From: Cetorhinus maximus | Lineage: Eukaryota | Assembly: GCF_964194155.1 (NCBI RefSeq) | Contig: NC_135901.1 | Location: 11,098,001-11,162,000, forward strand | DNA length: 64,000 nucleotides | Reading direction: 5' to 3' | Shown: in pieces, positions 224 to 60,230 of the stretch | How positions within the stretch are numbered: the first letter of the stretch is position 1 | How the letters are laid out: each line of letters opens with the position of its first letter | Notes under the pieces: model-generated | What the model was told of the DNA's origin: nothing | The model's database searches: none | What the model saw: the letters and a program-made list of their open reading frames with translations, nothing else | Made by a program: the position numbers and the translations under genes

Positions 224-576
224 TCAGTGCGCCCCCCCACCCCCACATTTCATCCAGCTCTGAAGAGCTTGGAGATTGGGATCTGTATGAGTAATGGCAG
301 CTATAGCTCCCACAATCCTCCGCGTTGGTGAAACCGCTCTATCCGCCACACGGCGGGCGACCCGGGACTGCGCATGTCCAAGGGAGAGAGAAGCTGCGCA
401 TGTGCGGAGGAGTGCCCCTGCTCTCCCCAACATGACCATTAAGTTGAGATGTTGACCAATGGGAAGACTTGGAGGACCAGAAGTACTCTGTTGCTCTAGC
501 CAATCAGAGCGCAGGCTTTGTGTCTCCAGCGCTTGAGCTTCACAGAGACGAAAACTTCCTCCTGTGTCCAACATCT
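224..576 (+). promoter_or_regulatory. CpG-rich promoter and non-coding exon 1 of ZNF-A
   Basis: ZNF143/SBS-like GCTATAGCTCCCACAATCCTCCGCG (300-324), two NRF1-like TGCGCATG sites (~369, ~395), two CCAAT boxes (~456, ~500), exon end AACATCT|GTGCGT at 576/577; inverted paralog at ~59100-59485. Confidence 0.7.
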
Positions 577-649
577 GTGCGTAAAACACTTTATTTTCTC
601 CCCCTTTCCATTTCTTTTCTAATTCTGAGTTTAAATTGTTGACTTGCAG

Positions 650-699
650 GAACTGAAGGGAAAGGAATTGAATCCAGGGAGGGTGCAGACTCTGGAAAG
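650..699 (+). other. Predicted 5'UTR exon 2 of ZNF-A
   Basis: ttgacttgcag|GAACTG...CTGGAAAG|gttggc; the same mini-exon recurs at 12484-12532, ~41100-41146, ~49494-49540 and ~58980-59029 (all minus strand). Confidence 0.6.
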
Positions 700-1022
700 G
701 TTGGCCCAGGTCTCTCTCTCTTAAAGACATTGACATCCTTTGCTCCCTCAGCTCGACACATTTATTTGTCTGGCTAAAAGGATGGTCTCTTCCTTAATGT
801 TCATAATTAAGGGGATGGTTTCCCCAGGAGATGGCTGGCATTTAAGGGACAGTGAATTAATATTGGAAGTGTTATGTCGAGTGTTGTTATATGATACATA
901 TTAGAGATATTATTTATGATTCTTTAATCATGTACATTTATTATTATTTCTATTCTTGTAATATATGTGGTGGTAGCATTTTATATTTCCAACCATAGAG
1001 TCATTTTGGCATTCAGCGACTT

Positions 1023-1428
1023 TAGTCCATGCCAACTCTCCAAGATTAGCCTGGAGTCTCCAGGAATTGAAGACCATTCGCCAATTCACTGCTGCGTGCA
1101 ACCCTGGAGAAAATTCATCAGGAAATTAATAAAGATTGTTTTTTTTTTGTAATTTTCTTAGAACATTTCACTTTGCCAGATATAAAAATATTGAAAATGT
1201 GTGTGGGGATGGAGGTGGGGTGGTGGGCGGCTGGGGAGGGTGTGGAAGGCTGCTTGGCTGACAGTTGAGTATCATCCAAGTGGGTAATGAGTCTTTTTGC
1301 TTTCCAATTGGTGTAGGAAGGCAGTGCGGCACAAGGTTGGCTGTGTTGGTTGATTAACAGCTGGAACGTGGAGGTAAATCATGCGGTGAAACCTCCAGGA
1401 ATACATTTCATCACAGTTGGCAAGCTTA
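1023..1428. mobile_element. Non-autonomous hAT-like DNA transposon (MITE)
   Basis: Ends resemble the TAGGGTTGCCAAC / GTTGGCAACCCTA TIR (..tgccaactctcc; gttggcaagctta); interrupts a CR1 tail that is contiguous in the paralogous intron at ~42190-42280. Confidence 0.5.
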
Positions 1429-1594
1429 GTCCTCACTCACTCTCCATAAAGCAATCCAGGCAGTCCCATTCACCCTGTAGATTCTCATAGTCTTGCAAGT
1501 TTATTTCCTGCAAATGCCTACTAATTTCATCCTCAAATCATTGTTAATATCTGCTTCTACCAGCATCGTAGGCAGCAAGTTCCAAGTAAATCTA

Positions 1595-2345
1595 AGAGTA
1601 CTGTATCTGTAACTCAGCATCAGAGTACTGTATCTCTAGCTCAGCATCAGAGTACTGTATCTGTAACTCAGCATCAGAGTACTGTATCTGTAACTCAGCA
1701 TCAGAGTACTGTATCTGTAACTCAGCATCAGAGTACTGTATCTCTAGCTCAGCATCAGAGTACTGTATCTCTAGCTCAGCATCAGAGTACTGTATCTGTA
1801 ACTCAGCATCAGAGTACTGTATCTGTAAATCAGCATCAGAGTACTGTATCTGTAACTCAGCATCAGAGTATTGTATCTGTAACTCAGCATCAGAGTACTG
1901 TATCTGTAACTCAGCATCAGAGTACTGTATCTCTAGCTCAGCAGCAGAGTACTGTATCTGTAACTCAGCATCAGAGTACTGTATCTGTAACTCAGCATCA
2001 GAGTACTGTATCTGTAACTCAGCATCAGAGTACTGTATCTGTAACTCAGCATCAGAGTACTGTATCTGTAACTCAGCATCAGAGTACTGTATCTGTAACT
2101 CAGCATCAGAGTACTGTATCTGTAACTCAGCATCAGAGTATTGTATCTGTAACTCAGCATCAGAGTACTGTCTCTCTAACTCAGCTTTAGGGTACTGTAT
2201 CTGTAACTCAGCTTCAGAGTATTGTATCTCTAGCTCAGTAATAGAGTACTGTATCTCTAACTCAGTAGTAGAGCACTGTATCACTCAGCAATAGAGTACT
2301 CTATCTCCAGCTCCACAATATAGTACAGTATCTCTATATCAGTAT
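1595..2345. repeat. 27-bp minisatellite (AGAGTACTGTATCTGTAACTCAGCATC)n, roughly 25 or more copies
   Basis: Near-perfect tandem array with a variant unit (..CTCTAGCTC..), degenerating after ~2160; lies in the ZNF-A intron. Confidence 0.95.
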
Positions 2346-2634
2346 TGGAGTACTGAATATTACGCACATTTTTAGTCCTGTGATAGATTTTCATGCCTCC
2401 GTGTCCAGAACAGGAAGTGGTGAGTGTGGAACTGTCAATTAGCATGATTTGCCACATTCAGGAGAATTGGGAGGGTGTACATTAGGTAATGCAGAGTTAG
2501 AAAGGAGGGAGAGTGTGTGGGATGGAGATTTACACATTTTGGAGCATAGGAGGGAAGAATGTTCCTTAGAAATTAGAATTGTCTGTTCTGAATTTTTATC
2601 CTAGACTGATGGGATGTGTGAACTCCTTTTACAG

Positions 2635-3736
<1,102 letters not shown>

Positions 3737-4009
3737 AGGTTGGATCCTGCTGCTATTGCTGCTGTTAATCATATCCAGAACTGAACCATGTTCATTCTGA
3801 AAGTTGGTAGGGCCAGAGGGTTTCTTTCTGATGAACTGGTCAGTCTCATGACTTTGCTTCCAGTGGGCTGATGCTCTTTGAATGTGGGAGAGTACATTTC
3901 CACTGAAATGATCCACAAAAGCTGATGAAGTACATTTAATTATCCTGGATAGTAAATAGTGTTGTTCCTACCAGGTTGATCTAAAATAAATAAATTTGTT
4001 TTTCTCCCA

Positions 4010-5160
4010 TTGAGTCTACAGCACATGGCCAGGCCAGTCGGCTCCATTGGTATATGTCAGTATTTGTGCTCCACGTGAGCCTCCACCCACCCCTCTTCAT
4101 CTCCCCCATCAGCATATCCTTCTATTCCTTTCTCCCTCTTGTTTGTATTTAGCTTCTCCTTAAATGTATTCATGCTGTTCACCACCACCACTCACTGTGA
4201 TAGCGAGTTCCACATTCTCACCACTCACTGGATAAAGAGGTTTCTCATGAAATCCCCATTGGATTATTGAACCCCTTCATAATCTTAAAGACTCCCACCA
4301 GGTCACCCTTCAGTCTTCTCTTTTCTAGAGAAAAGCAGCCCCAGACTTTCGCGAGGGTTGAAATGCTCTCATTTCTGGTATTATTCTTGTGAATATTTGT
4401 TGCCACTTCTCCAGTGCCTCTATTTCCCTTTTCTAAATGGAGATCAAAAATGTTAACAGTCCTCCCAGTGTAGTCTAACCACGGTTTGAAACAAGTTGAA
4501 CATAACCTCCCTGCTTTTCAATTCTGTACCTCTAGAAAGGAACCCGACAACTGAGCCCCGCACTTTAGACAAGATGTGAAATTATGCGAGAGGACGCAGA
4601 GGAGAATCGTGAGAATGCACCAGAGATAAGGGTCTTCAGTTAGTTGGAGAGACGGGAGCAGCTGAAATTTCTGTCTTTCGATCACAGAGTCATTAGGGCA
4701 GAGAAGGAGGCCATTCAGTCCATCGAGTCTATGTCGACTCGACAGAGCAAACTAATCTGTCCCATTGCCCTGTTCTATCCCTGTTACCCTGAATGTTTAT
4801 TTCCCTCAAGTGTCCAACCAATTTCCTTTTGAAATTATTCATTGTCTCCTTTTCCACTGCCCTTATAAGCAGTGAGTTCCAGGTCATTCCCACTCACTGT
4901 GTAAAATATTCTTCCTCACATCCCCCTGCATCTCCTCCCCAAAAGCTTAAATCCGTGTCCCCCAGTTCTTGTACCATCAGTTAATGGGAACAGCTTTTCT
5001 TTGTCCACTTTATGTAAACTTGTCATAATCTTGTACACCTCTATCAAATCTCCCCGAACCTGAGAAGAAATGACTTGCTGGGTGTCCTCGGGCTGGCATG
5101 GACAAGATGGGCCGAATGGTCTCCTTCTGTGCTATAACTTTTCTATGGTTCTATGTGGGA
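4010..5160. mobile_element. Old CR1 fragments forming the shared 3' flank of the ZNF cassette
   Basis: CR1 3'-end and ORF2 remnants in both orientations; the same mosaic recurs at ~8780-9380, ~37880-38570 and ~51740-52940. Confidence 0.65.
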
Positions 5161-5400
5161 ACCATGGCGTCTGGGACATACCATGGAGCATTTAAGTGGA
5201 GATTGCGCTTCTATCCAGAGTGCAATGGTAATGCTGCTGCACTTTGATACTACTGCTCAGACATGAGCAAGTGTCAGCTCTTAGTTGAATAATATCTAGC
5301 CACTGTCACCAATAAGTGTTATCACTGTGAATCATTTAAGAGTTTGGGAAAGGGGGACAAAAGGTTAACTAACTCCCTGAACCCCATTTTCTAACATCGC

Positions 5401-5985
5401 TGTGTCAAAAATAAAATCTCATCTCCCCCTGTGGCTCCTTTACCTTAGAGGGACTCATTTTCTGTTAAAGAGCCTGCCACTCTCCCTAAAGTGCATAAAT
5501 CTAATCATGTAAAGCCCAGCAAAATCAAATATTTTTTTCTGATAAGAGTTTATTCAGGAAACATAACACGGTTAAAAAGAAGAAAATTACTTAAGGATCA
5601 AAGACAACCAGAGTAAAAGGATGTGCACAATGTTCTGGACCCAAATGGTTTCTCTACAGCTCCTCTGTACGCTGTTCCCATCACTCCCCGCTTTGGTCAC
5701 AGGGGAACTGAACCCCAGGGGTCACGTCACTATCAGCCCCGGTCGCCCCCCACTCCTTCCCCAATTGGTTGGAGGCCCACTTCCCAGTTAGCCTTCCAGC
5801 ATCTTCGTGTTAGTCAATACCCATGGCAATTTCTTAAATGCGATGCAGACCCTGTTATTCTCAGCTAAATTCAGCCCTCAGCTCCATCATTGACATGAGC
5901 AAGAGACAGAAAGGAGCCAGAGGCTCAAATGGGAGTTCAAAACTTGTGGCTGTAAGCCAACACTAACATTTGTCAGTCAAATACA
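5401..5985 (-). mobile_element. Probable solo LTR
   Basis: TG...CA ends, minus-strand AATAAA near 5550, CCAAT/CRE-like block at ~5720-5775; no clear TSD. Confidence 0.3.
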
Positions 5986-6090
5986 TGTTATTTATATTGG
6001 AGTTTTGATTATTAGATTTAGGCACTAGAGGCAAAATGTGGGGAATTTAAAGGATAACTTTCCCTTTCTAACTTTGTATTGTCTATACTG

Positions 6091-6550
6091 TCAGCCATGG
6101 CTTAGTGGATCACACTCATATCTCTGAGTTAGAAGGCTGAGGGCTGAAGACTCACTCCAGGGACCTGAGGACAAAAAGCAAAGTCAATATTCCAAGTGCG
6201 AGCACTGAGGGAGTGCTGCACTGTTGGAGCTGCTGTTCTTTGGATGAGTTGCTAACTCAAGGGCCCTGTCTGCCCCTTTGGGCGGAGATGGAAGTTCCCA
6301 TGGCCAATATTTCGAAGAAGAGCAGGGGAGCTATCCCAGGTGTCCCAGCCAATATTTATCAATCAACATCACTAAAAACAGATCATCTGCTCATTATCAC
6401 ATTGATGTTTGTGGGATCTTGCTGTGTGTAAACTGGCTGCCATGTTTCCAACTTTACGACAGTGACTACACTTCAAAAGTACTTCATTGGCTGCAAAGCG
6501 TTTTGTGATGTATTGTGGTTGTGAAAGACGCTATATAAATGTAATATCTT
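6091..6550 (+). mobile_element. SacSINE1-type DeuSINE, near full length
   Basis: tRNA-like head, Deu-domain (..TTCGAAGAAGAGCAGGGGAG..GGTGTCC..GCCAATATTTATC..) and tail acttcaaaagtacttcattggctg..gctatataaatg. Confidence 0.8.
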
Positions 6551-6585
6551 AAATTTAAGATTTATATTATATGATCTTGCGATCT

Positions 6586-8080
6586 GTAACTTAATTGATT
6601 TCAGCTTGCCACTTAATAAATTCACTTTGGTCCAAACAAGATTTTAACCAATTAAGGCAAAGGCAGACTTCTCTGGATAGTAAACTTAAAAAAAAAACTT
6701 TTTTTATTCATTCATGGGATTTGGCGTCGCTGGCTAGGCCAGCATTTATTGCCCATCCCTAATTGCCCTTGTTCAGAGGGGCATTTAAGAGTCTGGAGTC
6801 ACATGTAGGCCAGACCAGGTAAGGGCCGCATATTTCCTTCCCTGACAATGGTTTCATGAGTCATCATCAGCCTTTTAATCTCATTCCTATTGAATTCAAA
6901 TTCCATCATCTGCCATGGTGGGATTTGAACCCTGGTCCCCAAAGCATTACCCTGGGTCTCTGGATTACTAGTCCAGCAACAATACCACTACACCATTGCC
7001 TCCCCCAGACATTATAAGATAAAGGTTTACTTAACGATTTTAAGACATTAACTTTTACAACTTCATGTGGGTGATCAGTCCGTAGAAGCGTCACCCTCCC
7101 TGGCTCCTTCTTTGACAGTAATTTCCTTGGAACTCAGCCTTGGGAATCTTCAGTACTTGGCTAGCAAGGAAGACCTTTGGAACCTCTACTTTTATCCCCA
7201 AAGTGACCATTACCTCACATCAGAGTGGGGCTTGTTGTAACATGACAATTGGTCAATTTAGTTGCTAGATTAATTGTATTCACAATTACTTACACGACCT
7301 TCTCTCATTATCTTTGACAGGAATACAATAGAACGGTTTCATACTATCCCTTTATCTGATTCTATACAATGACAGGTTTTCAGACAGTTTCAAATGTTGA
7401 GGCTAATCAGAGCTTGAAGGTCTCTCTTGCCAGTACATTTATCTTCATTGCACATTCTTTACATACACAGCAATGAAGGTTTCACATCTTTACAGTGAAT
7501 AAAACTCAGTCTTTTACTATAACTACTGATTCATTATTGATTCATTAATTGTAACTCAATTAAGGCTCACTACTTAAACATCTGTTACTGACTGATAGTT
7601 AATTAATACAGTAATATTTAATTAATACATTTGGTTAATACAAGATACAGTGGTTCAAAACAACAGATTATGGAAAACAATAGCTTTATTTTTTACTAAT
7701 CTTGATTGGATTAAACATGAGCCTTATTCTTAAACTAGATTTTGGCAGAATATGATGTCCTATAGCTTATCAAAATTAGAAAATAATTTATTTGTTTAAA
7801 CAATTTCTGCTAGCTCTGCAGTTCCTAGAAAAAATAAGTTTATATGGTGTTCATTTTTAAAATGCAGATGCACCCGTTATAATATAATTATCTATTACAT
7901 TGATTCACGAAGTGGTAACTTATTCAAGGTTCATTACTGAATAATCATCTGGTTCATGGCTGGCTATTAATACAAAACCAATAGGTATTTAATAAAGAAA
8001 AGTTATACAATGTGCAAAAGTTTCAAGAAGCCACATGTTAAGAGTTTAAAATGGCTTCCTTGACCTTGTTACTTATAACA
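6586..8080 (-). mobile_element. LTR-like element with nested SINE
   Basis: TGT..ACA termini; right end aaaatggcttccttgaccttgttacttataaca recurs at ~37103-37135 and ~32399-32430. Confidence 0.4.
6700..7005 (-). mobile_element. tRNA-derived SINE with LINE-derived tail
   Basis: Minus strand begins ggggaggcaatggtgtagtgg (A box) and has gggttcaaatccc (B box); its 3' tail matches the LINE end at 46686-46760; other copies at 24378-24690, ~26690-26960 and ~56030-56262. Confidence 0.8.
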
Positions 8081-9664
8081 GTGAATAGAGGATGAAAGTG
8101 ATTGAATTTTAAAATGAAATTTGACTACCCCGCCCTGTCTATAGTTTCATACATTACAATGATGAAACTTCAAAACTACTTCATTGGCTGCAGAACACTT
8201 TAAGAGGTCCTGTGGTCCTGAGAGGTGCTATGGAAATGTATTGTTTCGTAATTGTCCAGAAAATTGGATATATTACACACAATCCCCTCGTCAGAACCTT
8301 AATTTTGTGTAATAACCACATCTTTGCCACCATTTTGAATACTATGTGAAACTTCAAACACACAATATCCTGAATTATTTGTTTTAAAACACAGCAAGTT
8401 GTTGTGATTTGGAATGCACTGCCTGAAAATGGTGCGAGAAGCAGATTCACTTCTATCTTTAAAAAGGGATCTGGACAGATTCTTGAAAGGAAAAGAAAAC
8501 TGCAGGGCGACTGGATTAATTGGGTTGTTTTTCAAAGAGCCACCATGAGCATGATGGGCATAATGGCCTCCCTCTTTGCTCTGTGAGCCTCGTAGGCATT
8601 TAAAGTGAGTGGTCATGACCTGGAATCTGCTTCCACTCGAGGGTAAGAGAAGCGGGGATAATTGGGTGGACAAATAAACCTATAGGGACGTGAGGATGGA
8701 ACGGGGCAATGGAACTAACTGATTCACTCTGGAGAGCTGGCATGCAATTGATGGGCCGAATGCATAATTCTATGATCTAAAGAGAGCAATTTCATCTACT
8801 CCAGTCTCTCCAACTAACTGAAGTCCCTCACCCCTGGTGCCGTTCTCATAAATCCTGTCTCCAGCCTCTCAAAGAATTCACATCTTTCCTTTAATGTATG
8901 GTCCATATGTAGGGTTCCATTATAGAGGGATAGAATTTGAAAAGCAAGGAGTTTCTGTTCAACTTGTTTGGTTAGACTAACTGGGAGTACTGTCAACATT
9001 AGTGATCTCCATTTAGAAAAAGAACAATATCAGAACCGAAAGCATTTTCTTCACTGACACTTTTCAGAAAAAAGAGAGAAGACTGAAGGGTGACCTGGTG
9101 GGAGTCTTTAAGATTATGAAGGGATTCAATAATCCAATAGGGATTTCATGACAAACCTCTTTACCCAGTGAGTGGTGAGAATGTGGAACTTGCTCCCACA
9201 GCGAGTGGTGGAGGTGAAAAACATGAAAACATTTAAGCAGAGGTTAGATACATACACGAGGGAGATAGGAATAGAAAGATATGCTGATGGAGGGAGATGA
9301 AGCGGAGGCTCATGTGGAGCATAAATACTGACATAGACCAATTGAGTCGACTGGCCTGGCCCCGTGCTGTAGACTCAATGGAACAGAGACAAATGTATTT
9401 ATTTGTGATCTATCTGTAGTGGTAGGAAAAACACTATTACTATTTAGGATATAATGAATGTACTTAATCAGCTTTGTGGCTCATTTCAGTGGGAATGTGC
9501 ACTCCCAGGCTCAAAGAGCATCAGCTCACTGGAAGCAAAGCCGTGAGACCAGCCAGCCCAGCGGAAAGAAGCCCTCTGACCCTCCCACTTCACCAACAGT
9601 CAGAATGAACATGGTTCAGTCCTGGATGTGATTAACAACAGCAATAACAGCGGAATCCCTGCAA

Positions 9665-10759
9665 TCATCTGTGAACTCGCTGGTGTCTCATCAAGTTGGA
9701 TGACTGAGTGAATCCCTTCCCACAAGCGGAGCAGGTGAATGGCCTCTCCTCAGCATGCACTTGCTGGTGCTTCAGCAGGGTGGATGAAAGTCTGAATCTC
9801 TTCGCGCAGTTACAGCAGGTGAACGGCCTCTCCCCAGTGTGAATTCGCTGGTGCATCAGCAGGTGGGATGAATCACTGAATCCCTTCCCACACTCAGAGC
9901 AGGTGAATGGTCTCTCCCCGGTGTGAACTCGCTGATGTGCCTGCAGGGCGGTTGACTGAGTGAATCCCTTCCCACACTTGGAGCAGGTGAACGGCCTCTC
10001 CCCAGTGTGAACTCGCTGGTGTCTCCGCAGGGTGGATAAATGAGTGAATCCCTTCCTACACTTGGAGCAGGTGAACGGCCTCTCCCCTGTGTGAACTCGC
10101 CAGTGGGTCAGCAAGTTAGTTGACTGATTGAATCCCTTCCCACACTCAGAGCAAGTGAAAGGTCTCTCCCCGGTATGAAGTCGCTGGTGTGTCAGTAGGC
10201 TGGATGACTGAGTGAATCCTTTCCCACAGTCAGAGCAGGTGAATGGCCTCTCCCCAGTGTGAACTCGCTGGTGTGTCAGCAGGCTGGATAACTGAATAAA
10301 TGCCTTCCCACAGTCAGAGCAGGTGAACGGCCTCTGCCCAGTGTGAACTCGCTGGTGTATCCACAGGGCGGATGACTGAGTGAATTCCTTCCCACACTCG
10401 GAGCAGGTGAATGGCCGCTCCCCAGTGTGAAGTCGCTGGTGTGTCAGCAGGCTGGATAACTGAGTAAATGCCTTCCCACAATCAGAGCAGGTGAACGGCC
10501 TCTGCCCAGTATGAACTCGCTGGTGTCTCTGCAGGGAAGATGACTGAGTGAATCCCTTCCCACACTCAGAGCAGGTGAATGGTCTCTTCCCGGTGTGAAT
10601 TCGCTGGTGTATCTGCAGGTTGCCTGAGAGAGTGAATCCCTTCCCACAAACAGGGCAGGTGAATGGTCTCTCCCTGGTGTGACTGCGTCGATGATTTTCC
10701 AGTGCAGATGGGTTCTGGAATCCCTTCCCACAGTCCCTACACTTCCACGGTTTCTCCAT
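9665..10759 (-). CDS. ZNF-B, tandem C2H2 zinc-finger protein, 13 fingers, 364 aa
   Basis: Uninterrupted ORF from MEKPWKC; 13 canonical fingers with TGE/QRP linkers; coding exon acceptor at 11115; upstream promoter and exons at 12484-12900. Confidence 0.88.
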
Positions 10760-11359
10760 TGTGTGGGTGTCCTTGTGTCTCTCCAGTTTCAACAATCAGT
10801 TGAAAACACTTCTACAAACAGAACACGTGTACAGTCTCTCCCTGCTGTTAATGGTCTCATGTTTTTGTCAAGCTGTGTAACCTGTTAAAGCTTTCTCCAC
10901 AGTCAATGCACTGGAACACTCTCACTCGGGCCTGTGTGTCTCGGTGCTTTTCCAGTCACACTGATGTTAAAAACCTTTTGAAGCAGACAAAACAGACAAA
11001 CAGTTCTCCTTCTAGATTCAAAGGCCGATGATACTCACATCGTGATGAACCGAGTGACTGTTGACGTGACGTTTAGTTTGAGATTTCAATTTGCAAATCC
11101 TCCCCCTCTAATGTCCTGTAAAAGGAGTTTACAAAAGTCATTGCTGTCAGTACAGAGGAGAAATTCAGAACAAACAATTGTAATTTTGATGGAACATTCT
11201 TTCCTCTTTCATTCCCCAAAATCTCTGAATCTCCATCCCGCACACTTTCCCTACATCCTCATTCTGCTGTACCAACTATACACCCTCCCAATTTTCCTAA
11301 AGGTGCCGATTCAAGCTGATCGACAGATTCATGTTCACCGCTTCCTGTCCTGGAAACGG

Positions 11360-11960
11360 AGATTATAAGAAATGGGAACAGCAGTAGGCCATTCATACCA
11401 TCAAGCCTGCTCCGCCATTCAATAAGATCATGTTTGATCTGATGTGGCCTTAACTGCACTTTCCTGCCTGTCCACCATAATCATTGACTCTCTTGTTGAT
11501 CAAAAATCTGTCTAACTCGGCCTTGAATATATTCAATGACCCGGCCTCCACTGCTCTCTGTGGAAGAGAATTCCAAAGGCTAACGCTCCTCTGAGAGAAT
11601 AAATTCCTCCCCATCTCCATCTTAAATAGGAGACCCCTTTTTTAAACTGTGTCCCCTTGTTCTAGATTTCCCCATGAGAGGGAACATTCTCCCAGCACCT
11701 ACTCTGTCCAGCTTCCTCAGAATGCCATTTGTTTCAAAAAGATCACCTCTCATTCTTCTAAACTCCAATGAGTTAAGGCTCAACCTGCTCAGCATTTCTC
11801 AGATGACAATCTTTCATCCCAGGAATCAGCCTAGTGAACCTTCTACAAATGGCTTCCAAGCCAGTATATCCCTCCTTAAGGAAGGAATCCAAAACTGTGC
11901 AGAATACTCAACGTGTGGCCTCAACAATGCCCTGTGCAACTATAGTAAGACTTCCAAAAA
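11360..11960 (-). mobile_element. CR1 LINE 3' portion in ZNF-B intron
   Basis: CR1 3' end and C-terminal ORF2; a matching copy lies at the same intron position in ZNF-E (~40600-41030). Confidence 0.75.
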
Positions 11961-47613: not shown

Positions 47614-47649
47614 CTGGATGTGAATAACAACAGAATCCAATGACTGTGA

Positions 47650-49493: not shown

Positions 49494-50149
49494 TTTCTAG
49501 ACTGCACCCTCCCTGGACTAACTCTTTTCCTTTTAGTTCCTGCAAGTCAACAATTTAAGACCAGAATTAGAAAATAAATAGACATACAATAAATACATTG
49601 ATTTCCTCACAGATGTTGCACAGAAGTTTTAGCCTGAAGCTCATTGTTAAACTTCCGCATTGTTACGTCCACAATCGAACCCGACCTGAACCAGCCAATG
49701 GGAATCACTGCTTCGCGGTGACGTCCTCGGGTTCCAATCTTGCAGGCCAGGCGCGCGGACACGGGAGCCCTTTGTCCCCCCTCCCCCTCCTCGTCCTCGA
49801 GACAAGGTTTCCAGGTAACCGGCTGACGGCTCCGGACAGGCCGAGAAGCCGCTCGGCGAACTGCCCTTCCCACTCCCCACCTTGTCTACGGCGGCTGCCT
49901 GATCCAAAAAGAGATCGAGCGTGACCGCTGGCGGCAGCCGCACTGCGCCTGCTCCGGGCAGCTCGGGTCAGCAGTGCTTTCTGCGCCTGCGCGCTGGGTT
50001 GCCAGCTGCAGGAGTCGGGGGGGAGGGGAGGGGATTTTGTGAAGTGTCTTCGCTTTATTTTCTTCCGAGTCATGTAGTTTGATTTTAAACAGAACAACAT
50101 TTCTTTTTAGCTTCGCAAACACTAAAACTTCCTCCTCTGACCAACATCT
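49494..50149. promoter_or_regulatory. Bidirectional promoter ZNF-G / ZNF-H
   Basis: Third paralog of the same promoter; X-box GTTTCCAGGTAAC at ~49807; donors at 49611 (minus) and 50149 (plus). Confidence 0.75.
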
Positions 50150-50523
50150 GTGAGTAAATCACTTTCTTCACCCTCCCTGGGAAGTACAGAGAGTTGTGGG
50201 ACTCTGTAACTGGAATTAGTGCCAAATATGCTGAGGGGGGAAATGCTGGTGATTTTGTGGAACCTTTTTTTCATTGTATGAAAATTTTAAGGTCCAATAC
50301 AAGAAGCAGTCGACATGGATCTATCGGCATGAATCACCACCTTCAGGAGAATTGGGAGGGTGTATAACAGGTACAGCAGAGTGAGAATGGAGAGTGTGTG
50401 AGGTGGAGATTTAGAGCTTTTGGGGAATAAGAGAGGAAAAAGTTTTCCACGGAATCTAAAATTGTCTATTCTGAATTTCTATCCTATGCTGACAATGATG
50501 ACTTTTGTGAACTCATTTTGCAG

Positions 50524-51445
50524 GACAGATTGCAGACAGAAATCTCAAATGAAAGGTCACGTCAACATCTGACAGAATCACTCAATTCATCAGGACCTGA
50601 ATATCATTGGCTTATGTATTTCATCAGTTTTGAATCTAGGAGGAAAACTGTTTTCTGGTCTGTCTGCTTCAGAAGGTTTCAAACATCAGTGTGGCTACAT
50701 ACCCGAGTGAGAGTGTTCCCGTGCACTGACTGTGGAAAGACCTTTAACCAGTTACACAGCCTGAAAACACATCACACCATTCACAGCAGGGAGAAACTGT
50801 ACACGTGTTCTGTATGTGGATGAGGTTTCAACCGATCATCAACCCTCGAGAGACACAAGGACAACCGCACCTTGGACAAACCATGGAAAAGACTGTTGGA
50901 AGGGATTGCCTTCCCTGCCTGCACTGGAATTATATTGACACTGGGGAGAGGCCATTCACCTGCTCTATGTGTGGGAAAGGGTTCAGTAATTCGTCCCAAC
51001 TGCTGACACGCCTGCGAGTTCACACAGGAGGGAGACCGTTCACCTGCCCTGAGTGCGGGAATGGATTCAGTAATTCATCCACCCTGCTGACACACCAACG
51101 AGTTCACACTGGGGTGAGGCTGTTCACCTGCTCCCTGTGTAGGAAGGGATTCATTCAGGCATAGCATCTGCTGACACACCAACAGGTTCACACTGGGGAG
51201 ATGTTGTTCACCTGTGTGTGGGATGGGCTTCACTCAGTCATCTCACCTGCTGAGACACCAGCAAGTTCACACCGGGGAAAGGCCATTCACCTGCCTTGCG
51301 TGTGGGAGGAGATTTGGTGTTTCATCCTCTGTACTGGCATACCACCGAGTTCACACCATGGAGAGACTGTTCACCTGCTCCAAGTGTGGAAAGGTATTCA
51401 CTCAGTCATCCAACCTTGCTGAGACACCAGCGAGTTCACAAGTGA
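50524..51445 (+). pseudogene. ZNF-H, C2H2 zinc-finger pseudogene (~7 fingers)
   Basis: Deletions in finger 1, TAG at 51162, frameshifts at ~51215 and ~51415. Confidence 0.88.
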
Positions 51446-52169
51446 TGACAGGAGTTGGATTCTGCTGTTATTGCTGCTGTTAATCACACCCAGGACTGAA
51501 CCATGTTCATTCTGACAGTTGGTGAAGTGGGAGGGTCGGAGGGTTTCTTTCTGCTGGACTAGCCGGTCTCACGACTTTGCTTCCAGTGGGCAGATGCTCT
51601 TTGAGCCTGAGTGGGCACATTTCCACTGAAATAATCCACAAAAGCTGATGAAGGACATTTATTTTATCCTGGATAGTAAATAGTGTTCTTCCTACCACTA
51701 TAGGTAGATCTAAAATAAATACATTTGTTTCTGTTTCATTGAGTCTATAGCACAGGGCCAGGCCAGTCGGTTCAATTGCTCTATGTCAGTATTTATGCTC
51801 CACATGAGCCTCCACCCACCCCTCTTCATCTCCCCCCATCAGCATATCCTTCTATTCCTTTCTCCCTCATATATGTATCTAGCTTCCCCTTAAATGTATT
51901 CATGCTGTTCACCTCAACCACTCACTGTGGTGGTGAGTTCCACATTTTCACCACTCACTGGGTAAAGAGGTTTCTCATGAAATCCCTGTTGAATTATTGA
52001 ACCCCTTCATAATCTTAAAGACTTCCATCAGGTCACCCTTCAGTCTTCTCTTTTCTGGAGAAAAACAGCCCTCTCCTTTCCTGAGGGTTAAATGCTCTCA
52101 GCTTTGGAATTATTCTTGTGAATCTTTGTCGCCCCTTATCCAGTGCTTCTATTTCCTTTTCATAAAATG

Positions 52170-52516
52170 TGAGGGGTATAGACAGAGTAAATGCGAGTAG
52201 GCTCTTTCCACTTAGATTAGGAGAAATAAACATGAGAGGACATGGCTTTAGGGTGAAAGGGGAAAGGTTTAGGGGGAACATTAGAGGGAACTTCTTCACT
52301 CAGAGAGTGGTGAGAGTGTGGAACGAGCTACCATCTGACGTGGTAAATGCGGGCTCACTCTTAAGTTTTAAGAATAAATTAGATAGATACATGGATGGGA
52401 GAGGTCTGGAGGGTTATGGACTAGATGCAGGTCAATGGGACTAACGGAATAATATTTCGGCACAGACTAGAAGAGCCGAATGGCCTGTTTTCTGTGCTGT
52501 AGTGTTCTATGGTTCT
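52170..52516 (+). mobile_element. Young CR1 3' end
   Basis: ORF 52169-52444; AAATG target-site duplication; absent from the paralogous 3' flanks. Confidence 0.85.
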
Positions 52517-53319
52517 AAATGGAGATCACTAATGTTGACATTACTCTCAGTGTAGTCTAACCATGGTTCTAGACAAGCTCAACATAACCTCCCTGCTTTT
52601 CAATTGTATTACTGTAGACCGGAACCCCGTATACGGGCCCCACTCTTTAGGAAAGATGTGCAGCTCTTTGAGAAGCTGGAGAGAGGATTTATCTGAATGG
52701 TACTGGGGATGAAGGACTCCAGTCAGTTGGAGAGACTGGAGCAGCTGAAATTGTGCTCTTTAGATCACAGATTCAGTAGGACCGAGAAGGAGGTCTTTTT
52801 GGCCCATCGAATCCATGGTGCTGACTCTACGGCAAACTAGTCAGTCCCATTGCCCATTCTGTCACCGTAGCCCTGTGAGTTTATTTCCCACAAGTGCCCA
52901 TCCAGTTTCCTTTTGAAATCACTTGTTGTTTCCATTTCCACCATCAATGCACATGGACCCGCAGGAGCCTCTGTCCCTGCTCACTCTTTAGAACTGTGCC
53001 ATAAAATAGTGGAAGGTTCATCAACAGTGCTATCAGGCAGCGCTTACTCAGCAATAACCTGCTCACCATCTCACTGTTTGTATGAAGCATGCATGTCCCA
53101 AGATTTGATGGATAGCCCAGTTAGTGTGCTGAGGGAAACACGAGGCGCAGAGAGAGAGAGGGAGACCCCAGTCAGTAATAAAAAATGGTAACGAAATTGA
53201 GTCCAGACAAATATCAATGAATTAACACCACTTTATTAACAAATTAACAAAGTAAGCACTGTACTTGAATAAATGTTATTAACTGCCATAAATAAATCAC
53301 TTAAGGGTCAGATTAATAT

Positions 53320-55105
53320 AAAAGCAAAATACTGCAGATGTTGGAGATCTGAAATAAAAACAAAGTGCTGGAAAAATTCTGCAGGTTGGCAGCATCTGTG
53401 GAAAGGGGAACAGAGTTAACGTTTCGAGTCCAATTTGACTCTCCTTCGGAACATATTAACTACATTAATGATATTAACAGGTAGTCACTTGCTAGTACAG
53501 AACTTTAGTATTGCCGAGAAAAGAGACATGATGTCGAAGCTTTTCATCTTGCCCTCATCAGGATAGATCCACAAGAATACCAAATCTCAAAGGGAACAAC
53601 GGGTATGAAAAAGGGGTGCTGATTGGTTGGCAAGTGGACTGTGATTGGTAGAGCTGTCGCCATGGAGAATGCACCAGGGAACAGTAACTGCCAAGCTTTT
53701 CTTAAAAATTCAAACCAGACAAGTTGACTCTGACTGGTCAATTCATTGCCTTGGGGAATGAACAAGGGAATGGCTGTCCCCGAAGCTTCTGTTTAGTTGA
53801 AAAAGGTGCAATGAATGGACATGTTCTTTCTGTTTGAAAAAAATGGGGCCCGGTGTTTGAATCTTGGTGAGCCACACTGTGAGTCTGACTGATAATCTTA
53901 AATTGGTTGTTAGTTTCATTCTTAGCACAATCAGGATCGTTTAGTAAGTGTTGTCCAATTGCAGAATCACATCAGTTAGTCACTATGTTCTGAGTTTTGC
54001 AAGCTCTGTCTGGTTAACTACAGTCAGTACTTTGCCTGTTGCGAACAGCCAAAAAGATGTGCTGCTTGATATGATCCGCCAGTCATTGAGACATACGGGC
54101 TACATACCTGGCAACACCCCAGCACTGAAATTCATATACCACGTTACTCATTTGTGTGGTAGACAGAATGTCCTTTTGGTTTCACATCAGCATTCTGTTA
54201 GTGAAGAATATTACTAATGTTGCCACTGCATAGTAACAGTGTTGCTTAAATTTTTGAGACACCTTATGCTTCCAGGATAATCTGAGGTAGATTGGGCATT
54301 TTCAGGACCCAAGGCCTTAGGCCCATTCATGAGTTTGCGCGATTATACAGCGACCCCCTGGTCTGGTCATGGTAGCCATTAACCCGCAGGATAGCTTTGA
54401 TGCAGCCTATTTGGCATCAAGCTTGCAAGGTGAGCAAATGGCTCAGGGCCTTGTTTACGAGATTGCTGATTAGGCCAATCTTATAGTGCGTGGAAATGTA
54501 GGAATTGCAACACATATATTAACCAGTGAAGGCAGGCATGCAGTAGACGGTAGTAGAGAACCCATTAGCAGGTATCTCAACCACCACATTGAGGAATGGG
54601 AGCTCCTTTGACTGCTCCATTTCAAAGGGGAATTTGAGCACCGGCTGGAACCCATTAAGATAAATAAGGAAACCTTAGATGCAGCTGCAGAATCAAATAT
54701 AACTAGTATATCATCTACAGCTTGGGAATACACAAGGGGTAGGAGGTTAGGGGTTAGTCCATCAAAGACGTGTTTCTCATGGAAACTGAGAAAGATGTTC
54801 GTGATAGCTGGGCCTGGGGGGGGATTTCATGTCAACACTATCCATTTGGGCAGGCATGGTGGTCATTAAATCAGATGTCAACTGTGCGAGTTATTGAGTT
54901 CATAAGTTCAATGAATGCAGATTCAGACAATGGTGGAGGGTTAGATTGCCATGACATAGTGACTTGGTGCAAATCTCTATGGCTTCCCTGAACGGTGTAT
55001 TAGTGAATAGGCTCGCAATGTTGAACAAGCACATGGACATGGCATTGCGATCGATGTGCAAGTCCTGTATGGTCTTGGCAAAGGTGAAGGAATTCTTCAC
55101 CATGT
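53320..55105 (-). mobile_element. Penelope-like elements: Neptune pLTR end (53320-53452) and Poseidon RT-EN-pLTR (53510-55105)
   Basis: RT remnants (CLFNIASLFTN, AVDDILVIF), GIY-YIG remnant and hammerhead motifs. Confidence 0.8.
53532..53564 (-). ncRNA. Minimal hammerhead ribozyme motif in a Poseidon pLTR
   Basis: atcCTGATGAgggcaagatGAAAagctTCgaca; sister copy at 36861-36894 (plus). Confidence 0.55.
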
Positions 55106-55115
55106 ATGAGGAATG

Positions 55116-55152
55116 TGATATATATCATATATATATATATATACACACACAC
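55116..55152. repeat. (TA)n(CA)n microsatellite
   Basis: Direct reading. Confidence 0.8.
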
Positions 55153-56361
55153 ATGCATATACTGAACTAAAAATGTGTGTCGTATACACTACTCAATAAG
55201 ATAGAGATATGGGGGGATTTTCAGCGTGTGGTCATGACCTGGAACTCGCTGCCTACGAGGGTGGTGGAAGCAGAGACAGTAAATGATTTCAAAGTGAAAT
55301 TGGATGGGCATTTGAAGGAAATAAACTTGTAGGGGAACGGGGATAGAGAGAGGGAATGGAACTGACTGGATTGTTCTACAGAGTCGGCATGGACCCGAGT
55401 TACTGAGTGGATTGCTTGTGACGTAACGACTCTCCAACTGGAAATATATAACGTAGCCACTGTACTAAATTACAATTAGATTTTTACTGGATTTTTCTTT
55501 CAGTGACAAATGCATCAATTTAAAGGAGCATCGGCATTTACTTTGAAAATGCTTCTGACTTTAGGCCCCATGGAGGTCAATGTCAGGTCCCTGGTATCTG
55601 CCTGGGTGGGAGGGGGGACAGGTGGGCACCAAACTGGGCTTCAGTGCCACAAGGAGCAAAGCCGGTGTTCCTGCTCCACATGGTGATCCCACGGCTGGGA
55701 GGAAGCCTGGTGACAAGGGGAGGGTTTAGCGGCATCAACTGGGGGCAGCAGGAAGCCCGCCAAGGTCAACCAGCCTTGACTTATTCATCATGAATGTGGC
55801 TCCCTCACTTTGATGCCAGAGGGTCAATTGACAATTGGCGGAGCCAATGTGCAGCCAGTGTCAGGGTATGAACAGTAGACATTGAGAGGTTGTTGCCTCC
55901 TAGCTGAGGAATCTACAACACATGGGCACAGACTCAGGATAAGGGGCCGATCATTTCAGACTGAGATGAGGAGAAATGTTTTCACTCAGAAGGTTTGTGA
56001 ATCTTTGGAATTCTCTTACACCTGGTTCACCAATACCCTGGAGGGCAGGAAATCTGCTGTCCTTCCCTGGTCTAGCCTACATGTGACTCGGGACCCACAG
56101 CAATGTGGTTGACTCTTAACCTTCCTCGGAAATGGCTGAGAAAGAAACTCAGCTGCACCATACCACAACAGATAAGTTGGACAAGGTGGGCTGCAGCGGT
56201 TGGAGAAGGAAGATCATCACAACCGTCTCATGGGCAATTGAGGATGGACAATAAATGCTGGCATCTCTTTCTGACACTGATTGGCTTCTGCTACCTCGCT
56301 CTCTGTGGAGATTCTCACTGACCGTTTCTGGTCACTATTCTCGCCAGGCAACAAACTAGAA

Positions 56362-57095
56362 TGTTACAATCCCGGTAGGGACTGTTAATGTTTAAAGATA
56401 AGTCTAAACAGCCAGTGATTAACTGAAAGAACTACACCACAAAATTTCATGCTTTTACACAAAAACAAACTTTGTTGTATATATATCTCAATGAATAAAT
56501 CAAGAAAGCACCACTCCCTCCCCAATGGTTCCCTTACCTTACGAAATCTTGAGGCTTCATTCACTTTCTTTGGGGCCAACCCAAGGTATGCCACAGCCCT
56601 CTGGAATTTACTTTGAATTCTCCCCAGTCTGGGATTTAGATATCCAGAGCTCTTCCTCTCTGTGAGGATGCCACTGCCTTCTTCAGCTCACTTTGGATAG
56701 ACCAACTGCTTTTTCCCAGTCGGCTCCCACAGCCTCTTCATATCTCTTTCCAAGCTGATTGCTCTCTGACACAAGGCCAACTGCCTTTCACGGTGAGGAC
56801 CACTGGAGATTTCTTCCTCTAGCTTCAAACTAGGCAAATCTTCCAGCAACTTTTTCCCCTTACATGAATTCCAAGTAAACTGTAAATTACACAAGACCAA
56901 GTCTGTAATTGTCCCCCGTGAGAAACATCCAGATAAATGTTTAAAAAATATTCTAACCCCCACAGCCCATCTCCATGGCAATGAGTTATGCTTTGGGAGA
57001 AAATGGAAGGCAAACTGAATTTCTTTTTCCTTCCAAACACCCTTTCATTCTGTGATCCAAATGAAAGATGAAACTGGATATTCGCAACAAGTCTC
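56362..57095 (-). mobile_element. LTR fragment truncating the ZNF-I 3'UTR
   Basis: Terminus TGTTACAATCCC (minus-strand ..GGGATTGTAACA); ZNF 3'UTR similarity stops at ~57098. Confidence 0.5.
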
Positions 57096-57216
57096 AAAGT
57101 GCATCAGTCCACTGGAAGCAAGGTCATGAGACCGGCCAGTCCAGCTGTGAGGATGAACATGGTTCAGTCCTGGATGTGATTCGCAGCAGCAATAACAACA
57201 GAATCAACCCTTGTAA

Positions 57217-57807
57217 TCACTGGTGCAGTCGCTGGTGTCTCAATAGAAGGGAGGACCAAGTGAATGCCTTCCCACATACAGGGCAGATGAATGGCCTCTC
57301 CCCAGTGTGAACGCGCTGGTGTTCCTGCAGGCTGGATAACCGATTAAATCCCTTCCCCCACACACAGCAGGTGAACGGCCTCTCCCCTGTATGAACTCGC
57401 TGATGTGTCAGTAGGTTGGATGACTAGGTGAATCCCTACCCACACTTGGAGCAAATGAATGACCTCTCCCCAGTGTGAACTCGCTGGTGAGTTAGCAGGT
57501 TGGATGACTGAGTGAATCCTTTCCCACACTCAGAGCAGGTGAACGGCCTCTCCCTGGTGTGAACTCGCTTGTGTGTCAGCAGGTTGGTTGACTGAGTGAA
57601 TCCCTTCCCACACTCGGAGCAGGTGAATGGCCTCTCCCCAGTGTGAACTCGCTGGTGTGACTGCAGAGTGGATGACTTGCTGAATCCTTCCCCACACACA
57701 AAGCAGGTGAATGGCCTCTCCCCAGTGTGACTGCGTCGATGAGTTTCCAGATCAGACGGGCAACGGAATCCCTTCCCACAGCCCCGACACTTCCATCTTT
57801 TCTCCAT
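57217..57807 (-). pseudogene. ZNF-I, 7-finger gene with two in-frame TAG stops in finger 5 (could yield a 4-finger product)
   Basis: Same 591-nt frame as E and G; TAG at 57436-57438 and 57424-57426. Confidence 0.8.
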
Positions 57808-58974
57808 GGTGTGGGTGTCCTTCTGTCTTTCCAGGTTCAACAATCAGTTGAAGACTCATCTACAAACAGAACACATTTACGGTTTCTCCCCAGTTTGAAT
57901 GCTGTGATGTTTTTTCAGGCTGTGTAACTGGTTAAAGCTCTTTCCACAGTCAGTTCACTGTAACACTCCCACTCAGGTGTGTGTGTGTGTGTGTTTTGGT
58001 GCTTTCCCGGTCACACTGATGTTTGAAATCTTCTCCACAAACAGAACAGATAAACATTTCTCCTTCTAGATTCAAATGCCAATGACATCCACATCCCAAT
58101 GAATCGAGTGACTCTGTCAGATCATGGTGTGATGTTTGTTTTGAGATTTCAGTCTGCAAATCCTCACCTCCAGATATCCTGTGAAAGGAGTTTACAAAAA
58201 TCATCACTGTCAGTACTGGTTAGAAATTCAAAACAAACAATTCTAGTTTCTATGAAACATTCTTTCCTCTCTCATTCCCCAAAAGCTGTAAATCTCCATC
58301 CCACACACTCTCCCTCCATTCTCACTCTGCTGTACCTAATATACACCGCCCCAATTCTTCTGAAGGTGACAATTCATGCTGATCAACGGGTCCATGCTCA
58401 CTGATTCTAATACATATAATATATTTTTTGGACTAAAGATGCATGTAATATACAGTAATGTATTACTTGATTAGAGATACACGCAGGATGTGAGGAAGAA
58501 CTTTATTTAGGCAGCCTATAGCCTATGGGGATGGTGGCAGCAGAGATGATCAATTATTTCAAAATTGGATGGGCACTTGAAGGAAATAAATTTGCAGGGT
58601 GAGGAGGATATAAAGGAGGAATGGATCTGACTGGATTCCTCTGCAGAGTTGGTATGGACTCTAGTTGCCAAATGGACTCCTTCTGTGTCATATCGACTGT
58701 CTGAAAATATATAACATAGCTACAGTACTATATTACAAGACTAGAAATAATAATAAATGTACTTAATTGGAAAACCATAAATAATATGTCTAATATGAAC
58801 CACATAACATCACTTCACTTAAACCTGTCCTATATTAATTTACTGTCCCCTTAAATATCAGCCATTCCCTGGGAAAACGACCCCTTTAAATGTGAACATT
58901 AGCCAGACAAACAAATGTGCCAAGATGAGTGAGCAAACGATGTCAATGTCTTTAAGAGAGAGAGAGAGAGTAGG

Positions 58975-59485
58975 CCAACCTTTCCAGAGTCTGCACCCTC
59001 ACTGGATTCGCTTCCTTTCCCTTCAGTTCCTGCAAGTCAACAATTTAAACCCAGAATGAGAAAAGTAATGGAAAGGGGGAGAAAAGAAAGTGTTTTACTC
59101 ACAGATTTGGACATGAGGAAATTTTAGTCTGTGTTAAACTCAATCTTCATTGACACAAAGCCCGCGCTCTGATTGCCTGGAAGACAAGAGTCCTTCCGGT
59201 CCTCCAATTCTTCCCATTGGTCAATCCCCGCATGAAGACACTTTGACCCCATGACGTGTTCCAATGTTGGCCACCGTGAAACGCTTTTCTCCACACATGC
59301 GTACCCCCTCTCTTCATTGCCCATGCGCACTCCCGGGCCGTCCCGCCTGCGCGGTGGATAGACCGGTTTCCCTGAAGCGGCGACTTGTGGGAGTTACGGC
59401 TGCCATTACTGAGCCACAGCCCGGTCTCCAAACACATGGGACTGGCATGAAAAGTGGGAGTGAGGGGCGCAATGACCCCACCTTG
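58975..59485 (-). promoter_or_regulatory. Promoter and 5' exons of ZNF-I (inverted paralog of the ZNF-A promoter)
   Basis: ZNF143-like GCCGTAACTCCCACAAGTCGCCGC (~59377-59400), NRF1-like TGCGCATG, CCAAT, donor at 59103. Confidence 0.7.
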
Positions 59486-59749
59486 TCACAAAGTACATGT
59501 AGAAGTCACTGGATTTGATTTTGACATCGCTTCAACAAAATTGTTAGTTAACTTTAGGCGTAGAGATTTAGATACCTGGGTGACATATTGGGGAGGCAAA
59601 TTGTGACTCTGAAACTGAACCCGAGAATCAGCACCTTCAGGGAAGGAGAATTCTAGTTTGAGAGGGAAAAGGATTTTTTATGTCAACTGGAATATCAGTT
59701 TCTAATTTCTATTGTGTACGTACTGTAATGGCTTTAGTAAACGTCTTGT

Positions 59750-60230
59750 CAAGCATATTGGAGAAGGAGGACTTGCAGATGGGAAAATCAAATCAAACAT
59801 CCCATGAACACTTGAAGGAAATAAATTTGCAGGGTGAGGAGGATATAAAGGAGGAATGGATCTGACTAGATTCCTCTGCAGAGTTGGTATGGACTCTAGA
59901 TAGACTTAATTGATTCATCAGGACCAGATGATCATCAGCCATTGAATGTGGAAGGAGAAATATTTGTCTGTTTGAAAATATTTCTAACATCAGTATGACT
60001 GGCAAAGCATCGAGACAAACGCACCCAAGTGAGAGTGTTCCAGTGCAATGACTTTGGAAAGAGCTGCAGCTAGTTACACAGCCTGACAAAGCATTGCACC
60101 ATTTACAACGGGGAGAGACCGTTTATATGAGGCTTCAACTGATTGTTGAACATAGTGAGACACAAGGACACTCACAACAGGGAAAAACCATGTAAATGTG
60201 GGGCCTGTGGAATGGGATTCTATTACCCTC
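59750..60230 (+). pseudogene. ZNF-J remnant (leader plus start of finger 1)
   Basis: ILEKEDLQMGKSNQTS.., vestigial-finger leader, GKPCKCGACGMGF, then replaced by Copia pol. Confidence 0.7.

What the first reader, a model, noticed from the sequence alone, without database searches (positions are those of the whole stretch)
224..60230. KRAB-less tandem zinc-finger gene family in a birth-and-death cluster: candidate shark-specific TE-surveillance system
Seen: at least 11 paralogous C2H2 loci in 60 kb (5 intact, 4 pseudogenes, 2 or more remnants) with one shared cassette, embedded in dense TE sequence, and no KRAB/SCAN/BTB exon visible. Established: KRAB-ZFP clusters that silence TEs are typical of sarcopterygians/tetrapods, and other lineages have independent ZNF expansions (for example ZAD-ZNFs in insects and FiNZ-ZNFs in cyprinids). 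Inference: this is an analogous chondrichthyan expansion whose effector may be a short motif or simple steric blocking.
Basis: partly seen in the sequence, partly recalled or inferred. Interest (0 to 1): 0.72.

Follow-up and report, generated by a model that had tools for sequence, protein, structure and literature searches.

The report
Shark zinc-finger block copied with antibodies
This shark DNA holds eleven copies, five intact, of a gene-regulator gene made only of DNA-gripping zinc fingers, and the whole block has been duplicated as one unit with a neighbouring antibody (IgM) gene, so its recent spread likely follows antibody-gene copying, while a role in policing transposons remains untested.

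Summary
Observation confirmed: 11 C2H2 loci (5 intact, 4 broken, 2 remnants) share one leader, and no KRAB, SCAN or BTB exon was found. The leader is a decayed non-coding relic (open in frame in 0 of 53 and 2 of 23 loci of the two subtypes), so the proteins are fingers only. Almost all carry an unusual acidic 'W-finger' at or near the start, under strong constraint, a candidate partner-binding surface. The family has about 3,500-4,000 copies along a 65-Mb chromosome and occurs in rays too. This scan noted the family before on other DNA of this genome, and published counts exist. New here: the chromosome is the shark antibody/T-cell-receptor chromosome. The window plus an IgM cluster 33-55 kb beyond it is one duplication unit (4 of 4 recent copies tested), and zinc-finger blocks lie 3' of IgM genes (92 of 93 sites; 9 of 9 tail-to-tail intervals, 0 of 9 head-to-head). 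The transposon-surveillance reading is untested: repeat content is not enriched, recent duplicates keep their DNA-reading residues, and no robust positive selection was found.

The parts
330..720 (+). Promoter arm, short exon and mid exon upstream of gene A
   Evidence: similar to arms at 12.5, 41.1, 49.5 and 59.0 kb
1595..2282 (.). 27-bp tandem repeat, 25.5 copies, in the intron of gene A
2635..3740 (+). Locus A: leader with deletion plus frameshifted finger array (pseudogene)
9665..10759 (-). Gene B coding sequence, 13 fingers, starts with the W-finger
10760..11117 (-). Gene B leader: non-coding part of last exon with three decayed fingers and in-frame stops; splice acceptor near 11117
   Evidence: contig depth falls about 40-fold just upstream
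12450..13400 (.). Head-to-head promoter block (arm for B, arm whose partner gene is lost); CpG-rich, GCGCAGGCGC motif at 13063
19323..20471 (-). Gene C coding sequence, 13 fingers
20472..20848 (-). Gene C leader (non-coding relic)
21297..21700 (-). Probable promoter of C (GC-rich, motif at 21636) and a duplicated acceptor fragment
   Evidence: role inferred
24000..24400 (+). CpG island, probable promoter of D
   Evidence: CpG o/e 0.85; role inferred
26455..26700 (-). Remnant K: one decayed finger and 3' tail
27013..28153 (+). Gene D: short leader (27013-27115) and coding sequence from 27116, 12 fingers
   Evidence: its leader is open in frame but not in 4 of 5 older intact paralogs that could be read
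39424..40380 (-). Gene E: coding sequence 39424-40014, 7 fingers, plus leader
41040..41900 (.). Head-to-head promoter block between E and F
42768..44200 (+). Locus F: leader and array with frameshift and stops (pseudogene)
47650..48600 (-). Gene G: coding sequence 47650-48240, 7 fingers, plus leader
49450..50300 (.). Head-to-head promoter block between G and H; minus-strand intron 49539-49685 and plus-strand donor at 50150
   Evidence: joints in contigs of related organisms; sequence
50524..51520 (+). Locus H: broken array (pseudogene)
57140..58180 (-). Locus I: array with in-frame stops (pseudogene)
58960..59500 (-). Promoter arm and short exons of I
59737..60230 (+). Remnant J: leader cut off in the first finger
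1..64000 (.). The whole window is the zinc-finger part of a duplication unit of 120 kb or more whose other part, 33-55 kb past the window end, is an IgM heavy-chain minicluster

Best explanation
The window is the zinc-finger part of a repeated unit on the shark antibody-gene chromosome: a block of fingers-only C2H2 genes that lies 3' of an IgM gene and has been duplicated together with it, and whose intact proteins likely bind DNA sequence-specifically and likely recruit a partner through a conserved first finger instead of a KRAB domain. Shown: each gene is one or two short non-coding exons spliced to a last exon whose 5' part is a decayed former coding linker; translation can only start at the fingers; 7-13 fingers follow; fingers are gained, lost and shuffled; about 70% of copies are broken; the unit is copied in blocks of 120 kb or more with patchy later exchange. 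Inferred: the W-finger (W, D, helix P+1, E+5 fixed; positions -1 and +3 variable) has one face for a shared cofactor and may still read DNA; the proteins are repressors of repeat-derived or other lineage-specific sites, by analogy with KRAB-ZFPs and FiNZ-ZNFs; in the proximal 18-24 Mb copy number rises mainly through duplication of IgM-ZNF units, while an IgM-poor stretch (24-39 Mb) holds the older, diverse family.
For: Leader open in frame in 0 of 53 long-leader loci (frames 20/23/10) and 2 of 23 short-leader loci. Only three clean KRAB matches in the genome, all on another contig, none on this chromosome. Contigs from related organisms join exon 1 to the leader and show a GT-AG intron in 3 runs of 2 studies. 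W-finger in 28 of 29 intact genes, E+5 96%, P+1 92%, helix charge -0.75 against +0.65; its four signature residues have pN/pS 0.10-0.14 and its scaffold 0.25-0.28 against 0.44-0.57 in other fingers; found in 5 of 10 shark and ray proteins and in 0 of 1,002 fingers of 110 other proteins. Window collinear with copies at 12.9 and 15.7 Mb over its full length, and through the IgM cluster in 4 of 4 recent copies tested; two unplaced copies show the same spacing. The constant exon is 93% identical to a shark IgM heavy chain. W-finger sites lie 3' of the nearest IgM exon in 92 of 93 cases (57% expected); tail-to-tail intervals hold them in 9 of 9, head-to-head in 0 of 9; to 17.8 Mb 14 of 18 against 0 of 18.
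Against: No binding site, cofactor or gene-specific expression was shown. Neutral controls are weak: broken copies also give pN/pS under 1 (0.29-0.58; 0.36-0.66), so finger-wide pN/pS alone does not prove selection. The W-finger's -1 and +3 positions vary like DNA-reading positions, so it may be only an odd DNA-binding finger. The polarity counts come from copies of a few ancestral units and are not independent. Identity is patchy (ZNF part 95-99%, IgM part 88-96%), so the two parts have not always moved together. Stretches sampled beside two older copies (20.4 and 26.5 Mb) showed no IgM, and the family is dense where the IgM marker is absent (21 arrays in 200 kb at 29.4 Mb). The RNA status of the runs is a guess by the tool, and they come from related organisms.
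Confidence: 0.55

Rival explanations
1. Arms race with transposons drives the expansion: new copies are kept because they acquire fingers that recognise young TEs and silence them.
For: ZNF and retroelement counts correlate across animals and sharks have high counts of both (PMC10547256). Fingerprints are diverse (188 kinds among 254 fingers). Contact residues change 2-4 times faster than the scaffold between older paralogs (pN/pS 0.9-1.3; two bands touch 1.0 at the lower bound). Arrays shuffle fingers.
Against: Recent duplicates keep their fingerprints (contact pN/pS 0.16, 0.05-0.33, 21 pairs; all 10 recent D copies identical). No class is robustly above 1. Repeat cover is not enriched. Recent copy gain goes with IgM units. 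No binding data.
Confidence: 0.3
2. The ZNF blocks matter as DNA: they form silent spacers 3' of IgM miniclusters that limit recombination or enhancer cross-talk between clusters, and the proteins are secondary.
For: Strict 3' position and tail-to-tail arrangement; V-type segments were met instead in head-to-head intervals (2 samples). Zinc-finger gene copies around shark MHC-Ia-like genes were proposed to inhibit recombination (PMC10751288, passage). Heterochromatin on mammalian and zebrafish ZNF clusters is discussed in PMC10547256.
Against: Polarity follows simply from co-duplication; the copies show patchy exchange rather than protection from it; promoters are CpG-rich and family transcripts exist; no chromatin data.
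Confidence: 0.12
3. Passenger debris: the genes ride along with IgM duplication and most intact frames are merely young.
For: 70 of 101 sampled arrays are broken; dead genes such as F are copied as faithfully as live ones; broken copies mimic the low pN/pS.
Against: Frames of 7-17 fingers stay open in paralogs whose adjoining leader is about 26% diverged and full of stops and frameshifts; W-finger signature held at protein level with free synonymous change (E+5 pN 0.05, pS 0.88) and across sharks and rays.
Confidence: 0.1
4. An unseen upstream exon supplies an effector domain (KRAB-like or FiNZ-like).
For: The last exon starts with a relic of an acidic coding linker, as in KRAB-ZFP and FiNZ genes; gene D's leader is open in frame.
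Against: Stops or frameshifts between acceptor and fingers block it in 74 of 76 loci; D's open frame is lost in 4 of 5 older paralogs read; no Pfam effector upstream; exon 1 joins the leader directly.
Confidence: 0.04

Closest known systems
FiNZ-ZNF family on zebrafish chromosome 4q (Wells et al. 2023, PMC10547256; abstract, first part of Results, sections 6 and 10, supplement rows read; PMC11075544 passages)
   Same: Hundreds to thousands of tandem-finger genes on one chromosome arm that also holds immune gene families and tRNA genes; lineage-specific; no KRAB.
   Different: No coding upstream exon here; the only candidate effector is a finger. FiNZ genes show positive selection and TE repression; here neither is shown. 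Neighbours here are IgM and TCR segments, not NLR genes.
Tetrapod KRAB zinc-finger gene clusters
   Same: One exon for the whole array after a linker, TGERPF links, birth and death, finger shuffling, CpG-rich head-to-head promoters.
   Different: No KRAB domain; linker is non-coding; copy number several times larger.
Elasmobranch antigen-receptor complex (PMC12227049; passages, section 6 and 2 supplements read) and nurse shark IgM miniloci at least 120 kb apart (PMC2435157, passages)
   Same: IgM V-D-D-J-C miniclusters with TCR-type V segments between them on one chromosome; spacing of 100-500 kb.
   Different: Neither text mentions zinc-finger genes; here they fill the 3' spacers and are copied with the clusters.
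Reported but uncharacterised shark ZNF clusters (PMC11979771, one passage: catshark chromosomes 13 and 17; PMC10751288, one passage: ZNF copies around MHC-Ia-like genes; ORF counts of 475-3,586 in PMC10547256 Supplemental Data)
   Same: Very probably the same family.
   Different: No gene structure, W-finger, selection test or link with IgM duplication in the passages seen.

Membership tests
KRAB-ZFP | KRAB-A domain in an upstream exon | tested here: not met
   None in 293 upstream frames; genome-wide PF01352 gives 3 stop-free matches over the cut-off, all on C34, one read and PRDM9-like by eye (recalled likeness), plus 2 marginal matches with stops; none on C24
KRAB-ZFP | Tandem C2H2 array in a single last exon, clustered, birth and death | tested here: met
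KRAB-ZFP | Coding linker joining effector exon to fingers | tested here: not met
   open in 0 of 53 and 2 of 23 loci
KRAB-ZFP | Binds TEs and recruits TRIM28/SETDB1 | not testable with these tools
   no binding assay or motif predictor; presence of TRIM28 in this genome not tested
FiNZ-ZNF | Conserved 28-aa acidic domain in an upstream coding exon | tested here: not met
   no in-frame route from an upstream exon; no FiNZ profile was run
FiNZ-ZNF | Positive selection at DNA-contact residues | tested here: inconclusive
   0.16 in recent pairs, 0.58-0.75 in mid pairs, 0.9-1.3 in older pairs; pairwise counts only, no site models
FiNZ-ZNF | Expression at zygotic genome activation | not testable with these tools
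   only contigs of unlabelled runs from related organisms
SCAN-, BTB- or ZAD-ZNF | N-terminal oligomerisation domain | tested here: not met
   SCAN-like matches are dispersed (4,987 candidates), none of 150 scored on C24
PRDM9 | KRAB-SSXRD-PR/SET before the array | tested here: not met
Elasmobranch antigen-receptor complex | IgM miniclusters with V and C exons linked to TCR-type V segments | tested here: met
   C1-set and V-set exons, 93% to shark IgM, 57 places of a C-exon marker in 0.29-23.8 Mb; TCR type of the V exons at 4.0 Mb judged by eye
Elasmobranch antigen-receptor complex | Linkage to PSMB5, IgW and IgNAR | not tested
   not searched

The most novel reading that the evidence does not exclude
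Sharks and rays run a thousand-gene repressor system without any effector domain, in which a repurposed first zinc finger recruits the silencing partner, and its genes are built into the antibody locus: IgM-ZNF units amplify together, and the ZNF blocks act as spacers that keep IgM miniclusters independent, which would bear on how sharks achieve heavy-chain exclusion with dozens of loci.
Probability: 0.12. Interest if true: 0.88.

Novelty: new variant of a known kind. Interest (0 to 1): 0.6.

Why it matters
Large lineage-specific zinc-finger families are usually read as an arms race with transposons. Here a vertebrate family of thousands lacks any effector domain, has a single conserved finger that can be mutated and pulled down, and in part owes its copy number to duplication with antibody genes. 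That gives a direct test of how effector-less fingers work, offers a non-TE cause for the ZNF-TE correlation in sharks, and names what fills the long spacers between shark IgM miniclusters.

Tried and rejected
Run search: no RNA holder listed on record; laying contigs on gene B was swamped by finger repeats and TEs. Structure prediction of a W-finger dimer with zinc: no answer, score 0.11 against mark 0.32, alignment not used; no evidence either way. Protein search with the leader peptide found nothing. Atlas and solved-structure searches returned generic C2H2 proteins only. Rfam: no match in the window. A conserved upstream peptide from exon 1 plus leader was considered and rejected: frames scatter and the ATG is missing in some copies. 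Read-through of the common TGA in the long leader was rejected for the same reason. The Drosophila CGxPhi dimer finger (PMC12774644, abstract only) is a different motif. Tree-based substitution counts were not obtained, so all selection figures are pairwise, uncorrected for multiple hits; the older band holds non-independent pairs, and the 'variable positions' set was chosen after looking. Pairs were chosen on upstream similarity, which biases the upstream distance downward. Literature searches found no paper devoted to this family or to its link with IgM clusters; subscription papers are not covered, and files 3-5 of the PMC10547256 supplement, bioRxiv supplements and figures were not seen and may hold more.
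Full report
Observation. The window holds 81 C2H2 motifs in 11 loci: intact B, C, D, E, G; broken A, F, H, I; remnants K and J. Twenty 10-kb controls from other chromosomes hold 2 motifs. The loci share a leader, an intron end, promoter arms and a 3' tail. E/F and G/H are head-to-head pairs round one CpG-rich block; a GCGCAGGCGC motif occurs 4 times, each in a promoter region, and never in 100 shuffles. Repeat content is ordinary for this genome: 28% against 34%, measured against a small shared library.

Scale. The window lies on a 65-Mb contig, C24, of a 3.99-Gb genome. The leader has 3,522 candidates; an exact 26-mer of the first finger has 1,028 matches, which scales to about 4,000 loci from its frequency in my sample (26 of 101); 20 evenly spread pieces give about 35,500 fingers on C24 (16,000-57,000). 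In 0.95 Mb sampled, mostly from dense places, 31 of 101 arrays are intact by a strict rule and 94 of 101 carry the leader. Named relatives come from sharks and rays, and a sawshark model keeps the leader. Published counts of ZNF frames in sharks run from 703 to 3,586, with 475 in a chimaera (PMC10547256 supplement rows); the main text does not name sharks. Catshark ZNF clusters are mentioned in one sentence of PMC11979771.

No effector exon. There are two subtypes: a short leader (about 109 nt) before MEGKST-like starts, and a long leader (about 376 nt) with three decayed fingers before MEKPWKC. The leader is open in frame in 0 of 53 long and 2 of 23 short loci (3 of 26 listed rows were long-leader loci and were set aside; two more short leaders are stop-free but out of phase). 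Gene D is one of the two, but 4 of 5 older intact paralogs that could be read are shifted or stopped. Pfam finds no effector in 293 upstream frames. KRAB occurs cleanly only three times in the genome, on another contig. Contigs from runs guessed to be RNA, from related organisms, show a GT-AG intron at 49539-49685 in 3 runs of 2 studies and three joins from the exon-1 donor to the leader. This shows family transcripts, not expression of these genes.

A conserved first finger. 28 of 29 intact genes carry a finger of the form [15 protein letters not shown] at or next to the start, with an acidic helix. Its signature residues are held while their synonymous sites change; pN/pS is 0.10-0.14 for W, D, P, E (20-32 disjoint pairs) and 0.25-0.28 for the scaffold against 0.44-0.57 in fingers 2, 3 and last (25-37 pairs). 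It is in 5 of 10 shark and ray proteins and 0 of 110 others. Positions -1 and +3 vary freely. I infer a partner-binding face on a finger that may still touch DNA; this is untested.

Selection on DNA-reading residues. In 21 recent pairs (240 fingers) contact pN/pS is 0.16 and the rest about 0.4; in mid-age pairs 0.58 (0.31-0.94, 34 fingers); between older paralogs 0.9-1.3. Arrays also change by finger gain, loss and shuffling. Broken copies give values under 1 as well, so the firmer sign of selection is that long frames stay open beside a ruined leader. A clear arms-race signal was not found, nor excluded.

The unit of duplication. B, C, D and F recur with the same spacing at five other places on C24 and on several unplaced contigs at 97-100%; the whole window aligns to the copies at 12.9 and 15.7 Mb. 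The ZNF-free stretch past the window's end holds Ig constant and variable exons, 93% identical to a shark IgM chain. In 4 of 4 recent C24 copies tested the alignment runs on from the ZNF block through this IgM cluster, at 88-99% with patches; stretches beside two older copies did not show it. A C-exon marker has 57 places in 0.29-23.8 Mb, none listed in 24-39 Mb, and more beyond (first 100 of 134 matches listed). First-finger sites lie 3' of the nearest IgM exon in 92 of 93 cases to 7.85 Mb (57% expected), and occupy 9 of 9 tail-to-tail and 0 of 9 head-to-head intervals; with a second marker 14 of 18 and 0 of 18 to 17.8 Mb, 15 of 19 and 1 of 20 to 20.6 Mb. These counts are not independent events. 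C24 thus matches the elasmobranch antigen-receptor complex of PMC12227049, whose text and two supplements do not mention zinc-finger genes. PMC10751288 notes ZNF copies round MHC-Ia-like genes.

Mechanism and verdict. Shown: fingers-only genes, birth and death, block duplication with IgM in the proximal part of the chromosome. Inferred: sequence-specific binding, repression through the W-finger, repeat-derived targets. Which partner drives the duplication is open; the family is also dense where IgM is absent, so IgM does not explain its origin. It works like KRAB-ZFP and FiNZ clusters in layout and turnover but is a member of neither. The scan reported the family earlier in at least eight other windows of this genome; the link with IgM units was not in the short notes I could see. 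New variant of a known kind; interest 0.6.

Noticed in passing
L001-L009, C24 about 11.006-11.080 Mb (18-92 kb before the window): Zinc-finger elements form a mirror-image duplication with arms of about 37 kb centred on a 200-N gap: a palindrome or a scaffolding artefact.
   Followed up: no
L014:3409-6322, L016:1-519 (33-50 kb past the window end): IgM heavy-chain minicluster on the minus strand, constant end facing the window.
   Followed up: yes
L022:5540-8598, L020:1652-2080: V-set exons that look like T-cell-receptor V segments, in head-to-head intervals between IgM clusters.
   Followed up: partly
L021, L028, L040: tRNA genes (8 in 3 of 20 ZNF-free pieces scanned, one called tRNA-SeC) in the gaps between ZNF blocks.
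   Followed up: no
G000 C34:9.12-9.40 Mb (L041-L043): Three KRAB matches close together, probably PRDM9-type paralogs.
   Followed up: partly
genome-wide: 4,987 dispersed SCAN-like candidates, probably retrotransposon capsid remnants (recalled origin of SCAN), a source that this family has not captured in the window.
   Followed up: no
window 60286-62880 and 47032-47520: LTR-retrotransposon remnants: RVT_2 match at 62095-62460, an integrase-like frame and a gag-protease-like frame judged by eye.
   Followed up: no
window 1595-2282: 27-bp tandem repeat of 25.5 copies in gene A's intron; the copies at 12.9 and 15.7 Mb break alignment at 2.0-3.1 kb.
   Followed up: no
window 534-600, 12556-12630, 13139-13215, 41660-41743, 50076-50150, 59074-59134: At least three different promoter arms end in the same 29-nt donor segment, and one arm has a second donor upstream.
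   Followed up: partly
L095 (C24 50.05 Mb): A more diverged IgM constant region beside ZNF genes in the distal part of the chromosome.
   Followed up: no
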